The notes below the pieces were generated by a model, which worked only from the letters and a program-made list of their open reading frames with translations, had not been told where the DNA came from and did not search any database. 64,000 nt of DNA from Escherichia coli (lineage in GTDB: Bacteria; Pseudomonadota; Gammaproteobacteria; Enterobacterales; Enterobacteriaceae). Both the position numbers and the translations under genes were made by a program. The stretch is taken from the NCBI RefSeq assembly GCF_044324875.1, contig NZ_CP172185.1; one strand, given 5' to 3'. Position 1 is the stretch's first letter. The number at the start of each line of letters is the position of its first letter. Below, one piece after another: positions 5,901-7,569 of this stretch.

Positions 5901-7569
5901 TGGCGGGACGGCAATCGTCTACGCAGGTACGCTGGCGGATGCATCGGTCAGTGGCGCGACAGGAAGCCTGTCGTTAATGACGCCACGGGATAATGTTACG
6001 CCAGTTAAACTTGAAGGGGTGGTCCGGATTACCGATAGCGCGACATTAACTATCGGAAATGGCGTCGATACGACGCTTGCCGACCTGACGGCTGCCAGTC
6101 GGGGCAGTGTCTGGCTTAACAGCAATAATTCCTGTGCAGGCACCAGCAACTGCGAATATAGAGTAAACAGTTTACTCCTCAACGACGGTGATGTTTATTT
6201 ATCAGCACAAACAGCAGCGCCTGCCACAACTAACGGTATCTACAATACGCTGACCACCAGTGAACTTTCCGGCAGCGGTAATTTCTACCTGCATACCAAC
6301 GTTGCAGGCTCCCGGGGCGATCAACTGGTCGTCAACAACAACGCCACTGGCAATTTTAAAATCTTTGTTCAGGATACCGGCGTCAGCCCTCAGTCTGACG
6401 ACGCGATGACGCTGGTGAAAACAGGGGGAGGGGATGCTTCGTTTACGCTGGGTAATACCGGCGGTTTCGTTGATCTTGGGACCTATGAGTATGTCCTGAA
6501 AAGCGACGGCAACAGCAACTGGAACCTGACCAATGATGTCAAACCCAACCCGGACCCCAACCCAAATCCGAAACCGGATCCAAAACCAGACCCAAAACCG
6601 GATCCGAAACCAGACCCGACTCCCGCTCCAACGCCGACACCCGTCCCGGAGAATCGCATCACGCCTTCTACAGCAGCCGTACTCAATATGGCAGCAACAT
6701 TACCGTTGGTCTTTGATGCTGAGCTAAACAGTATTCGCGAGCGGTTGAACATAATGAAAGCGAGTCCACACAACAATAATGTCTGGGGGACGACGTATAA
6801 CACCCGTAATAATGTCACCACCGATGCGGGTGCCGGGTTTGAGCAGACGCTGACCGGAATGACGGTGGGGATCGATAGCCGTAATGATATTCCTGAGGGG
6901 ATTGCGACGCTGGGCGCTTTTATGGGTTATTCCCATTCACATATTGGTTTTGATCGTGGAGGACATGGCAGTGTGGGCAGTTATTCTCTGGGGGGCTATG
7001 CCAGCTGGGAACATGAAAGTGGTTTCTATCTGGACGGTATCGTGAAGCTGAACCGCTTTGAAAGTAACGTAGCCGGTAAAATGAGCAGCGGTGGAGCCGC
7101 CAACGGCAGTTATCGCAGCAACGGGCTGGGCGGTCACATTGAAACCGGGATGCGATTTACGGATGGTAACTGGAACCTGACGCCGTATGCATCGTTAACG
7201 GGGTTCACCGCTGATAACCCCGAATATCATTTATCCAATGGCATGGAATCGAAATCAGTCGATACCCGCAGTATATATCGTGAACTGGGCGCAACGCTGA
7301 GTTACAACATGCGTCTGGGGAACGGTATGGAAATTGAGCCGTGGCTGAAGGCGGCTGTGCGCAAAGAATTTGTCGATGATAACCGGGTGAAGGTGAATAA
7401 TGACGGTAATTTCGTCAATGATTTGTCGGGCAGACGTGGAATATACCAGGCAGGTATTAAAGCCTCATTCAGCAGTACGTTAAGCGGACATCTCGGGGTG
7501 GGGTATAGCCATGGTGCCGGTGTGGAATCCCCGTGGAACGCGGTGGCTGGTGTGAACTGGTCGTTCTGA
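2995..7569 (+). CDS. ypjA: AIDA-I-type autotransporter adhesin (YpjA-like): signal peptide, long repetitive passenger domain, Pro-rich linker, C-terminal beta-barrel
   Basis: AGAGG ribosome-binding site 9 nt upstream of ATG 2995. N-terminus MNRTSPYYFRRSVLSLLISALIYAQPGMAA is an autotransporter-type signal peptide. Gly/Thr/Asn-rich degenerate repeats, KPDP-type linker, and C-terminus ending ...AGVNWSF. The ORF track start at 2866 is an upstream in-frame extension. Confidence 0.85.
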   Translation: MNRTSPYYFRRSVLSLLISALIYAQPGMAAFTTNVIGVVNDETVDGNQRVDERGTTNNTHIINHGRQEVYGGISNSSIIETGGEQLVSIHADINGQANNTTINGGRQSIEYGGISTGTIIESGNQYVYKGGTSNDTTIKGGTSRIEGGTANGTIIDGGGQSVSTQGHVDGTTINKSGYQDITQGSLATNTTINGGRQYVEQSTVETTAIKNGGEQRVYESRALDTTIEGGTQSLNSKSTAKNTQIYSGGTQIVDNTSSSDVIEVYSGGVLDVRGGTATNITQHDGAALKVTTYDLTVSGTNSEGAFSIHNNVAENVLLENGGHLDINAYGSANKTIIKDKGTMSVLTNAKADATRIDNGGVMDVAGNATNTIINGGTQNINNHGIATGTNINSGTQNIKSGGKADTTNISSGSRQVVEKDGTATGSNISAGGSLIVYTGGIAHGVNQETGSALVANTGAGTDIEGYNKLSHFTITGGEANYVVLENTGELTVMAKTSAKNTTIDAGGKLIVQKEAKTDSTRLNNGGVLEVQDGGEAKHVEQQSGGALIASTTSGTLIEGTNSYGDAFYIRNSEAKNVVLENAGSLTVVTGSRAVDTIINANGKMDVYGKDVGTVLNSAGTQTIYASATSEKANIKGGKQTVYGLATEANIESGEQIVDGGSTDKTHINGGTQTVQNYGKAINTDIVSGLQQIMVNGTAEGSIINGGSQVVNEGGLAENSVLNEGGTLDVREKGSATGIQQSSQGALVATTRATRVTGTRADGVAFSIEQDAANNILLANGGVLTVESDTTSAKTQVNAGGREIVKTKATATGTTLTGGEQIVEGVANETTINDGGIQTVSANGEAVKTTINEGGTLTVNDNGKATDIIQNSGAALQTSTANGIEISGTHQYGTFSIAGNLATNVLLENGGNLLVLAGTEARDSTVGNGGAMQNLGQDFATKVNSGGQYTLGRSKDEFQALARAEDLLIAGGTAIVYAGTLADASVSGATGSLSLMTPRDNVTPVKLEGVVRITDSATLTIGNGVDTTLADLTAASRGSVWLNSNNSCAGTSNCEYRVNSLLLNDGDVYLSAQTAAPATTNGIYNTLTTSELSGSGNFYLHTNVAGSRGDQLVVNNNATGNFKIFVQDTGVSPQSDDAMTLVKTGGGDASFTLGNTGGFVDLGTYEYVLKSDGNSNWNLTNDVKPNPDPNPNPKPDPKPDPKPDPKPDPTPAPTPTPVPENRITPSTAAVLNMAATLPLVFDAELNSIRERLNIMKASPHNNNVWGTTYNTRNNVTTDAGAGFEQTLTGMTVGIDSRNDIPEGIATLGAFMGYSHSHIGFDRGGHGSVGSYSLGGYASWEHESGFYLDGIVKLNRFESNVAGKMSSGGAANGSYRSNGLGGHIETGMRFTDGNWNLTPYASLTGFTADNPEYHLSNGMESKSVDTRSIYRELGATLSYNMRLGNGMEIEPWLKAAVRKEFVDDNRVKVNNDGNFVNDLSGRRGIYQAGIKASFSSTLSGHLGVGYSHGAGVESPWNAVAGVNWSF

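What the first reader, a model, noticed from the sequence alone, without database searches (positions are those of the whole stretch)
6541..6649. Tandem (K/N)PDP-coding micro-repeat in the autotransporter linker: candidate length-variable tract
The DNA at 6541-6649 is built from imperfect tandem 12-nt units (AAACCGGATCCA / AAACCAGACCCA ...) encoding KPNPDPNPNPKPDPKPDPKPDPKPDPTPAPTPTPVP. This links the passenger domain to the beta-barrel. Such short in-frame repeats are prone to slipped-strand expansion or contraction, which would change linker length and hence surface display of the passenger domain without breaking the frame.
Basis: partly seen in the sequence, partly recalled or inferred. 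Interest (0 to 1): 0.35.

Follow-up and report, generated by a model that had tools for sequence, protein, structure and literature searches.

The report
Length-variable proline spacer in YpjA adhesin
A stretch of 18 "X-Pro" pairs joining the stalk of the E. coli surface adhesin YpjA/EhaD to its membrane barrel is encoded by an imperfect DNA repeat that does gain and lose whole repeat units between strains, but only slowly, so it is an ordinary example of a known kind of coding-repeat polymorphism.

Summary
Window 6541-6648 (+) encodes (XP)18 (KPNPDPNPNPKPDPKPDPKPDPKPDPTPAPTPTPVP), residues 1183-1218 of ypjA/EhaD (CDS 2995-7569). It lies between the Pertactin/autochaperone module and the pore helix plus beta-barrel.

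The DNA is an imperfect repeat of period 6/12/24 nt.

Among about 2,500 complete E. coli genomes with the gene, tract lengths are 28, 30, 32, 36, 38, 40, 42 and 46 aa (44 at a paralogous locus). All changes are in frame. Several are exact 24-nt or 6-nt gains or losses in genes whose flanks are otherwise identical or nearly so.

The tract is 2.4% of the gene but holds nearly all of its indels.

It is not hypermutable. Three allele families (36, 38, 40 aa) cover about 96% of genomes, and derived lengths are about 1%. The effective unit is 6, 12 or 24 nt, not 12 only.

Any effect on surface display is untested, and many ypjA copies are pseudogenes.

A paralogue between ymgJ and minE carries a purer (NP)n run. 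It ranges from 20 to 82 aa, and from 20 to 66 aa between near-identical flanks.

The closest known cases are the pertactin PQP repeats and the TibA proline-rich domain. This is a new member of a known kind, of low to moderate interest.

The parts
2995..7569 (+). ypjA/EhaD coding sequence (1524 aa plus stop), an AIDA-type classical autotransporter
   Evidence: ORF list and translation. The start matches the annotated ypjA of NZ_CP030768.1, which is identical over the 509 nt compared. Pfam finds AIDA x10, Pertactin and the Autotransporter beta-domain.
6163..6531 (+). Pertactin-like (PF03212) autochaperone module at the C-terminal end of the beta-helical passenger
   Evidence: Pfam E=5e-45. Aligns to P.69 pertactin residues 430-534 (1dab) and to Vag8. 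The AF2 model shows beta strands up to residue 123 of the modelled segment.
6541..6648 (+). The (XP)18 proline-rich spacer, residues 1183-1218. This is the finding itself and the gene's indel hotspot.
   Evidence: It is the only long low-confidence segment without secondary structure in the AF2 model (residues 128-162, pLDDT < 50). It has no counterpart in the Vag8 or BrkA alignments. Length differs among alleles.
6571..6618 (+). Two tandem 24-nt units (KPDPKPDP x2), 22 of 24 identical, with two 11-nt perfect direct repeats at an offset of 24. This is the substrate predicted for +/-24-nt slippage in this allele.
   Evidence: Direct-repeat map and TRF period 24. Alleles of the same family lacking exactly one such unit (28 aa) exist: P0123, P0164 and L025.
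6664..6756 (+). Long alpha-helix (pore-spanning linker helix) that follows the spacer
   Evidence: AF2 helix at residues 168-198 of the modelled segment. The BrkA translocator structure 3qq2 aligns from residue 186 onward.
6781..7500 (+). Autotransporter beta-barrel domain (PF03797)
   Evidence: Pfam E=6e-46. The AF2 model shows a beta-barrel with pLDDT mostly above 85. Aligns to the BrkA and Vag8 barrels.

Best explanation
The tract is a proline-rich, structure-free spacer of alternating X-Pro residues. It sits outside the cell between the autochaperone end of the YpjA/EhaD beta-helix and the helix that plugs the outer-membrane barrel.

Because it is encoded by an imperfect 6/12/24-nt periodic DNA repeat, it is the place in the gene where replication slippage, or unequal exchange between short direct repeats, adds or removes whole units. 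All changes are multiples of 6 nt, so both the reading frame and the X-Pro register are kept.

The repeat is interrupted by synonymous differences. In the window allele the longest perfect repeats are 11 nt, so events are rare. The species holds three old, stable allele families (36, 38 and 40 aa) plus a fringe of about 1% recent derivatives (28, 30, 32, 42, 46 aa).

Shown here: position, composition, polymorphism, unit-sized in-frame indels in near-identical backgrounds, and concentration of indels in the tract.

Inferred: slippage is the molecular mechanism, and the tract acts as an extended stand-off spacer of up to about 11 nm if fully polyproline-II, with 8 residues worth about 2.5 nm. 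Whether length matters for function is unknown.
For: Position:
- Pfam layout and PDB alignments.
- AF2 model, mean pLDDT 84.5, with only the tract disordered.

Polymorphism: tract lengths of 28-46 aa in ypjA.

Unit events in near-identical backgrounds:
- O157:H7 ECP19-598 vs O157:H7 4276: 0 differences in 3,670 flanking nt, exact 24-nt loss.
- VG48B2 vs K-12: 3 differences in 2,900 nt, exact 24-nt duplication at a 19-nt perfect repeat.
- ET474 vs K-12: 2 differences in 3,800 nt, exact 24-nt loss.
- 027_SK3 vs K-12: 3 differences in 4,400 nt, 6-nt loss.

Hotspot: in 12 intact genes, at least 4 gap blocks lie in the tract and 1 lies in the other 4,467 nt. Substitution density is similar inside and outside (14% vs 10%). 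Binomial P = 1.5e-6.

Purity dependence: the paralogue's purer (NP)n run is 20, 54, 58 and 66 aa between flanks differing at 0 of 1,500 and 1-3 of 1,300 nt, and 82 aa in ETEC6333.

Slowness:
- K-12-type allele with at most 2 differences in 1,269 records, and only 37 near-variants.
- Three families cover 96.6%.
- The 28-aa derivative is in 2 genomes.
- The -6 allele is in 4 genomes and the +24 allele in 1.
Against: - No experiment or population sequencing here shows slippage directly. Unequal recombination would leave the same products.
- Differences between the three main families involve several overlapping indels and cannot be ordered into single events.
- Some allele shuffling is by recombination or gene conversion rather than new slippage: upstream and downstream distances disagree, and ypjA-like tracts sit at the paralogous locus.
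- Three of the rare variants lie in already disrupted genes, so their survival says nothing about function.
- The spacer or stand-off role is inferred from composition and position only.
- Counts come from identity bands and evenly spaced samples of 60 rows, not from a full extraction of every genome.
Confidence: 0.8

Rival explanations
1. The length differences come mainly from homologous recombination and gene conversion. Whole tract alleles are moved between strains and between ypjA and its paralogue at the ymgJ-minE site, rather than created in place by slippage.
For: - Flank distances are mosaic. HCM-27C-1 is 36 differences from the window upstream but 15 downstream. HH107 is 7 differences from K-12 downstream but 23 upstream.
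- A full-length gene at the ymgJ-minE locus (E500002) carries a window-like 36-aa tract with 7 of 1,000 flank differences.
- PT62 carries a ypjA-like 44-aa tract at that locus.
- The paralogue copies nest among ypjA alleles in flank distance.
Against: It cannot explain exact single-unit changes with 0-3 flanking differences over 2.9-4.4 kb. It also cannot explain where the different lengths came from in the first place. It is best seen as a second process that redistributes alleles.
Confidence: 0.3
2. The tract is a contingency-type hypermutable repeat. Its length changes at high frequency within populations, giving rapid adaptive switching of adhesin display.
For: - It is a tandem repeat in a surface adhesin, and changes are unit-sized.
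- The paralogue's (NP)n run does vary between very close relatives.
Against: - The changes are multiples of 3, so there is no on/off switching.
- The repeat is interrupted: the longest perfect repeat in the window allele is 11 nt.
- 1,269 records, including many independently kept K-12 laboratory derivatives, share one allele, with only 37 near-variants.
- Nearly all sampled O157:H7 genomes share one 40-aa allele.
- Derived lengths are about 1%.
Confidence: 0.05
3. Length and sequence variation is maintained by host immune selection on an exposed, immunodominant repeat epitope, as proposed for the pertactin repeat regions.
For: The tract is extracellular and unstructured in the model. It lies just after the module homologous to the end of P.69 pertactin. 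Pertactin's GGFGP and PQP repeat numbers vary among alleles (PMC3966384) and are used for typing (PMC12243275).
Against: - There is no excess of substitutions in the tract.
- The amino-acid pattern is kept while synonymous sites differ (sequences).
- ypjA is frequently a pseudogene.
- No immunological data exist for YpjA in the papers searched.
Confidence: 0.1
4. The rare length variants are assembly or sequencing artefacts in a repetitive region.
For: Draft assemblies often break at or near the tract. One Logan contig shows a 1-nt frameshift in it (P0113). Two variants (32 aa and 46 aa) were each seen in a single record.
Against: - Only complete genomes were used for the allele comparisons.
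- The variants are exact unit changes, not ragged errors.
- Several recur in independent records: 28 aa on 36 contigs plus 2 complete genomes, 30 aa in at least 6 genomes, -6 nt in 4 genomes.
- The tract is only about 100 nt, well within read length.
Confidence: 0.03

Closest known systems
TibA proline-rich domain (ETEC self-associating autotransporter)
   Same: An extra proline-rich segment separating the junction/autochaperone region from the membrane-embedded C-terminal domain (TibA residues 627-677; PMC3835316). [quoted passage not shown]
   Different: - Sequence similarity of the two tracts was not tested here.
- Length polymorphism of the TibA domain was not examined.
- From memory (Cote and Mourez 2011, not held in the library), deleting the TibA domain affected adhesion. 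No such data exist for YpjA.
Pertactin repeat regions 1 (GGFGP) and 2 (PQP) in Bordetella
   Same: In-frame, proline-containing tandem repeats in a classical autotransporter, whose copy number differs among alleles and is used for typing (PMC3966384, PMC12243275). The YpjA tract begins right after the module that aligns to the last residues of crystallised P.69. From memory, that is where the PQP region lies.
   Different: - The motif and unit size differ (XP dipeptides in 6/12/24-nt units, against 9- and 15-nt units).
- Pertactin variation is linked to vaccine-era selection, and nothing comparable is known for YpjA.
- The exact position of PQP relative to the alignment rests on my recollection.
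The ymgJ-minE paralogue of ypjA, which PGAP also names 'ypjA' and of which K-12 keeps only a barrel remnant
   Same: The same C-terminal module with the same flanks (NWNLTN-[DN]V ... EKRITPS) and the same kind of XP tract in the same position.
   Different: - Its tract is a much purer (NP)n run and is far more variable: 20, 54, 58, 66 and 82 aa, the first four between near-identical flanks.
- Its passenger is shorter (about 1,090-1,150 aa).
Proline-rich rigid spacers of envelope proteins, such as TonB (EP)n-(KP)n
   Same: Alternating X-Pro with charged residues, expected to be extended and to span a distance. This comparison rests on established knowledge, not on a test made here.
   Different: TonB's spacer is periplasmic and unrelated in descent. 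No structural data exist for the YpjA tract beyond a low-confidence AF2 segment.
Simple-sequence contingency loci (phase-variable genes)
   Same: A tandem repeat in a surface-protein gene, with slippage as the presumed mechanism.
   Different: The unit is a multiple of 3, so there is no frame switching. The repeat is interrupted. The population is dominated by stable alleles.

Membership tests
Classical (type Va) autotransporter, AIDA-I-type adhesin; orthologue of YpjA/EhaD | C-terminal 12-strand beta-barrel translocator (PF03797) preceded by a pore helix | tested here: met
   Pfam E=6e-46. Aligns to the BrkA and Vag8 barrels. The AF2 model shows helix 168-198 followed by a barrel.
Classical (type Va) autotransporter, AIDA-I-type adhesin; orthologue of YpjA/EhaD | Beta-helical passenger with AIDA repeats and a Pertactin-type autochaperone | tested here: met
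   PF16168 x10 (E=4e-142) and PF03212 (E=5e-45).
Classical (type Va) autotransporter, AIDA-I-type adhesin; orthologue of YpjA/EhaD | Orthology: near-identity to annotated ypjA, and the same chromosomal position next to the ssrA-associated island | tested here: met
   100% identity over 509 nt to annotated ypjA. Context ypjCB - ypjA - island - ssrA. In some strains ypjA directly abuts ssrA.
Classical (type Va) autotransporter, AIDA-I-type adhesin; orthologue of YpjA/EhaD | Adhesion or biofilm function | not testable with these tools
   Literature statement only (PMC9289746: YpjA is associated with biofilm formation).
In-frame coding tandem-repeat (VNTR-like) length polymorphism | Head-to-tail DNA repeat detectable at nucleotide level | tested here: met
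   TRF period 12 and period 24. Direct-repeat map.
In-frame coding tandem-repeat (VNTR-like) length polymorphism | Copy number differs among strains by whole units, keeping the frame | tested here: met
   Lengths of 28-46 aa. Changes of 6, 12 and 24 nt.
In-frame coding tandem-repeat (VNTR-like) length polymorphism | Indels concentrated in the repeat compared with the rest of the gene | tested here: met
   At least 4 blocks in the tract against 1 outside in 12 intact genes. P = 1.5e-6.
In-frame coding tandem-repeat (VNTR-like) length polymorphism | Already used as a typing locus (generic E. coli MLVA) | tested here: not met
   None of the 20 CVN/CCR primers (PMC8143711) matches the window or any fetched locus with 3 or fewer mismatches. 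No paper holds both 'ypjA' and 'tandem repeat'.
Proline-rich inter-domain spacer of autotransporters (TibA-type) | Located between the junction/autochaperone region and the membrane domain | tested here: met
   TibA description in PMC3835316.
Proline-rich inter-domain spacer of autotransporters (TibA-type) | High proline content and no predicted fold | tested here: met
   50% proline. pLDDT < 50 and no secondary structure.
Proline-rich inter-domain spacer of autotransporters (TibA-type) | Needed for a passenger function such as adhesion | not testable with these tools
   Needs deletion or length mutants.
Contingency locus (slippage-driven phase variation) | Long uninterrupted simple repeat | tested here: not met
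   The longest perfect direct repeats in the window allele are 11 nt at an offset of 24.
Contingency locus (slippage-driven phase variation) | Unit changes switch expression on and off (frame or promoter spacing) | tested here: not met
   All observed changes are multiples of 6 nt inside the CDS.
Contingency locus (slippage-driven phase variation) | High variability among very close relatives | tested here: not met
   1,269 records share the K-12-type allele, with 37 near-variants. The O157-type allele is in 268 records at >=99%. The paralogue's (NP)n run does vary among close relatives.

The most novel reading that the evidence does not exclude
Spacer length acts as a selected 'height adjuster'. 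The XP tract of YpjA, and especially the fast-changing (NP)n tract of its ymgJ-minE paralogue, would set how far the adhesin stalk stands above the outer membrane. Tract length would then be matched by selection to the thickness of the strain's O-antigen or capsule layer, so that length change exposes or hides the adhesin without any on/off switch. O-antigen can mask surface-displayed epitopes on (inverse) autotransporter scaffolds (PMC4858243), but nothing here links tract length to O-antigen type.
Probability: 0.1. Interest if true: 0.55.

Novelty: new member of a known kind. Interest (0 to 1): 0.27.

Why it matters
This gives a documented example, at the scale of thousands of genomes, of how repeat purity sets the pace of in-frame length change in a surface protein. 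The interrupted ypjA repeat is nearly frozen in three forms, while the purer (NP)n repeat in its paralogue changes among near-identical strains.

Practical points:
- Tract length in ypjA is a stable lineage marker rather than a fast clock.
- The paralogue's tract could be a discriminating marker within the O55:H7/O157:H7 group.
- Short-read assemblies are unreliable around these tracts.
- Anyone using YpjA as a display scaffold (PMC13101318) should know that the natural spacer ranges from 28 to 46 aa.

It does not open a new biological question unless spacer length turns out to affect adhesin exposure.

Tried and rejected
1. The large protein-collection search with the C-terminal module returned mostly fragments and more distant paralogues rather than full-length alleles. 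It was useful only to show that the XP tract is confined to the ypjA/paralogue/E. albertii clade and is absent from YejO-like relatives.
2. Cluster membership look-ups gave few intact alleles. Many members are draft-assembly fragments ending near the tract, so I switched to complete genomes.
3. I first called the paralogous locus 'ycgV'. The K-12 annotation shows that the ymgJ-minE site holds only a 344-nt barrel remnant and lies beside ycgH, so that label was dropped.
4. A -3 nt hit (ERL06-2503) looked like a change that breaks the XP register. The deletion lies 20-30 nt upstream of the tract in AACAGCAAC, and the tract itself is the normal 40 aa.
5. VG48B2 and strain 97.3 have identical chromosome lengths but different tract alleles. 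Their downstream context differs completely, so this is a coincidence.
6. The frameshifted fragment P0113 is a 1-nt loss in a GG pair on a single Logan contig. It is not a unit event and may be an error.
7. The papers on pertactin repeat polymorphism (PMC98445) and TibA structure-function (PMC3088133) are not held. What I say about them beyond the citing papers is from memory.
8. The contingency-locus reading was considered and rejected (see rivals).
9. The antisense ORF 6483-6821 (112 aa) is a mirror image of the proline codons (GSGFGSGFG...) and was dismissed as a gene.
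Full report
**1. What is in the sequence**

Window 6541-6648 on the + strand reads AAACCCAACCCGGACCCCAACCCAAATCCGAAACCGGATCCAAAACCAGACCCAAAACCGGATCCGAAACCAGACCCGACTCCCGCTCCAACGCCGACACCCGTCCCG. In the frame of the long ORF it encodes KPNPDPNPNPKPDPKPDPKPDPKPDPTPAPTPTPVP, which is 18 consecutive X-Pro dipeptides.

Tandem Repeats Finder calls the region with period 12 (5.6 copies, 74% matches) and, with a higher score, period 24 (3.2 copies, 79%). The core is two 24-nt units, at 6571-6594 and 6595-6618. They are 22 of 24 identical and contain two 11-nt perfect direct repeats at an offset of 24.

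The tract holds 18 of the protein's 32 prolines. In 2,000 shuffles of the protein the longest X-Pro run was 4.

**2. What gene and where in the protein**

The ORF is ypjA/EhaD. The 509 nt around the tract are 100% identical to annotated ypjA genes. The annotated start corresponds to window 2995, giving 1524 aa.

- Pfam finds ten AIDA repeats, a Pertactin domain ending three residues before the tract, and the Autotransporter beta-domain after it.
- Against solved structures, the segment before the tract aligns to the last 105 residues of crystallised P.69 pertactin. The segment after it aligns to the Vag8 and BrkA translocators. The tract itself has no counterpart.
- An AlphaFold2 model of the last 468 residues, built on a 25-sequence alignment, has mean pLDDT 84.5.
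- In that model the beta-helix strands end at residue 123.
- Residues 128-162, which are the tract, are the only long segment with pLDDT below 50 and no secondary structure.
- A 31-residue helix (168-198) follows, then the barrel.

More exactly, it lies between the autochaperone and the pore helix, on the extracellular side.

**3. Is it length-variable?**

Yes. The same 509-nt query spans 509, 515 or 521 nt in other complete E. coli genomes. Tracts read from fetched loci and proteins:

| Length (aa) | Where seen |
|---|---|
| 36 | window type, and several substitution variants |
| 38 | K-12 |
| 40 | O157:H7, O145 and others |
| 36 | K-12 type minus 6 nt |
| 28 | window/SCU-105 family minus 24 nt (P0123 on 36 contigs, P0164, complete genome SCU-172) |
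| 30 | K-12 type minus 24 nt (ET474; at least 6 genomes by span) |
| 32 | O157 type minus 24 nt (O157:H7 ECP19-598) |
| 42 | 3 genomes, from span length only |
| 46 | K-12 type plus 24 nt (VG48B2) |

E. albertii orthologues have 18, 30 and 32 aa. More distant paralogues such as YejO-like proteins have no XP run. Every change seen in a complete genome is a multiple of 6 nt, so the frame and the X-Pro register are kept.

**4. Are these repeat-unit events, or old allelic differences?**

Both occur. Four variants are exact unit changes in genes that are otherwise almost identical:

| Pair | Flanking differences | Change in tract |
|---|---|---|
| ECP19-598 vs another O157:H7 | 0 in 3,670 nt | 24-nt deletion |
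| VG48B2 vs K-12 | 3 in 2,900 nt | 24-nt duplication |
| ET474 vs K-12 | 2 in 3,800 nt | 24-nt deletion |
| 027_SK3 vs K-12 | 3 in 4,400 nt | 6-nt deletion |

The K-12 family carries a 19-nt perfect direct repeat at an offset of 24, and both the +24 and the -24 products of that repeat are found. The O157 family has a 16-nt perfect repeat at an offset of 12, and a +12 form with three CCCAACCCAAAT units exists.

In an alignment of 12 intact ypjA genes, all gap blocks but one fall in the tract, which is 2.4% of the gene. The fraction of variable columns is similar inside (18 of 126) and outside (466 of 4,467). The chance of at least 4 of 5 indel blocks landing in the tract is 1.5e-6. This is the pattern expected from slippage or unequal exchange at short direct repeats. 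The molecular mechanism itself is inferred, not shown.

By contrast, the three main families differ from one another by several overlapping indels and many synonymous changes. They are old.

**5. How fast?**

Slow.

- A 206-nt query of the K-12 allele finds 1,269 of 2,525 records at >=99% identity and only 37 at 95-99%.
- The window allele finds 401 at >=99% and 360 at 95-99%, all of the same length in the sample.
- The O157 allele finds 268 and 103.
- Together the three families cover 96.6% of records.
- Four evenly spaced samples of about 60 rows each give 27-35% for 36 aa, 47-54% for 38 aa and 15-18% for 40 aa. They hold one row each of 32, 46 and 44 aa.
- The predicted minus-24 derivative of the window's family is in 2 complete genomes.
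- The -6 allele is in 4 genomes and the +24 allele in 1.
- Many independently maintained K-12 laboratory strains share one allele.

The tract is therefore not a contingency-type hypermutable repeat.

**6. An internal control: the paralogue**

Some strains carry a second copy of the same C-terminal module between ymgJ and minE. PGAP also names it ypjA. K-12 has only a 344-nt barrel remnant at that site.

Its tract is a much purer (NP)n run. It is 20 aa in eight O55:H7 records, 54 aa in O55:H7 DEC5B, 58 aa in O157:H7 LSU61 and 66 aa in O157:H7 493/89. The flanks among these four fetched strains differ at 0 of 1,500 nt upstream and 1-3 of 1,300 nt downstream. It is 82 aa in ETEC6333.

A purer repeat that varies much more fits the slippage reading. 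It also places the window's interrupted tract at the stable end of the range.

**7. Recombination also plays a part**

Upstream and downstream flank distances disagree for several strains. The paralogue copies nest among ypjA alleles. Two strains carry ypjA-like tracts at the ymgJ-minE locus: E500002 with 36 aa and PT62 with 44 aa. Alleles are therefore moved by recombination or gene conversion as well as created in place.

**8. Function**

Nothing here tests function. By composition and position the tract should be an extended, exposed spacer. At 3.1 angstroms per residue for polyproline II, 36 aa would reach about 11 nm and an 8-aa unit about 2.5 nm (arithmetic; the conformation is assumed).

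O-antigen can mask epitopes displayed on (inverse) autotransporter scaffolds (PMC4858243), so stand-off distance could matter, but this is only a general principle. Against strong functional importance, ypjA is often disrupted:

- by IS1203, IS2, IS1414 or IS3, or by a deletion;
- and three of the rare length variants sit in such dead copies.

**9. Comparison with what is known**

- TibA is described as having an additional proline-rich domain between the junction region and the C-terminal domain (PMC3835316). The review PMC9289746 places it in the same autotransporter group as YpjA.
- Pertactin alleles differ in the number of GGFGP and PQP repeats (PMC3966384), and those repeats are used for typing (PMC12243275).
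- The ypjA tract is not one of the generic E. coli MLVA loci: none of the 20 primers matches.
- No held paper combines 'ypjA' with 'tandem repeat'.

It is therefore a new, so far undescribed member of a well-known kind.

**10. Verdict**

- The tract is length-variable by in-frame unit changes.
- The units are 6, 12 and 24 nt.
- The rate is low.
- Any functional consequence is unproven.

Interest is low to moderate. The more striking object is the paralogue's (NP)n run, which lies outside the window.

Noticed in passing
Not in the window. Loci L005 4401-4460, L024 1601-1762, L022 1601-1774, L023 1601-1798, L006 4399-4644.: A paralogue of ypjA between ymgJ and minE has an (NP)n tract of 20, 54, 58, 66 and 82 aa. 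The first four are in O55:H7/O157:H7 strains whose flanks differ at 0 of 1,500 and 1-3 of 1,300 nt. That makes it a truly fast-changing coding repeat and a possible subtyping marker.
   Followed up: partly
L007 753-5429 (E500002) and L027 1193-4099 (PT62), both at the ymgJ-minE locus.: ypjA-like tracts (36 and 44 aa) with ypjA-like flanks sit at the paralogous locus, and upstream and downstream flank distances disagree among ypjA alleles. This suggests gene conversion or recombination between the two loci and between alleles, with breakpoints near the tract.
   Followed up: partly
L014, L015, L016, L017, L018 and L019 (ypjA locus in other strains).: ypjA is often a pseudogene: IS1203 (two strains), IS2, IS1414, IS3, and a C-terminal deletion in an O157:H7 strain. 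In strain 1332KP the ypjA fragment upstream of the IS1414 ends about 6 nt before the tract start. In F765 the IS1203-associated event has removed most of the tract.
   Followed up: no
Window about 2811-2930 (+); L001 671-790.: A conserved 39-codon ORF (WP_001120794.1; WP_001131446.1 or WP_001131445.1 at the paralogue) is annotated about 64 nt upstream of both ypjA and the ymgJ-minE paralogue. It could be a leader or regulatory peptide shared by the two genes.
   Followed up: no
Window downstream of 7569; L011, L020 and L030 compared with L001, L003 and L028.: In some strains ypjA ends 161 nt from ssrA (tmRNA). In others, different islands lie between them: CP4-57 genes in K-12, and about 31 kb in strain 2017C-4173W12. 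ypjA therefore flanks the ssrA integration hotspot, and its downstream neighbourhood is highly variable.
   Followed up: partly
Window 3968-3973.: This is the only indel outside the tract among 12 intact ypjA genes. It is a 6-nt block (ACATAA) that is present or absent in the passenger, and it separates two groups of alleles.
   Followed up: no
Window 6483-6821 (-).: A 112-codon antisense ORF overlaps the tract. Its product (…GSGFGSGFGSGFG…) is the mirror image of the proline codons, so it is almost certainly not a gene.
   Followed up: yes
Proteins P0125, P0134, P0139-P0141 and P0162 (draft assemblies); P0113.: Many draft-assembly protein fragments end at or within a few residues of the tract, probably because the C-terminal module is shared by two loci. 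One Logan contig shows a 1-nt deletion (GG to G) that frameshifts the tract. Short-read assemblies should not be used to score this tract.
   Followed up: partly
L026 about 3015-3025 (ERL06-2503), equivalent to window about 6512-6520.: A 3-nt deletion in AACAGCAAC (DGNSNWN becomes DGSNWN) lies 20-30 nt upstream of the tract, in an otherwise O157-type allele. It is a second small slippage-prone motif beside the tract.
   Followed up: yes
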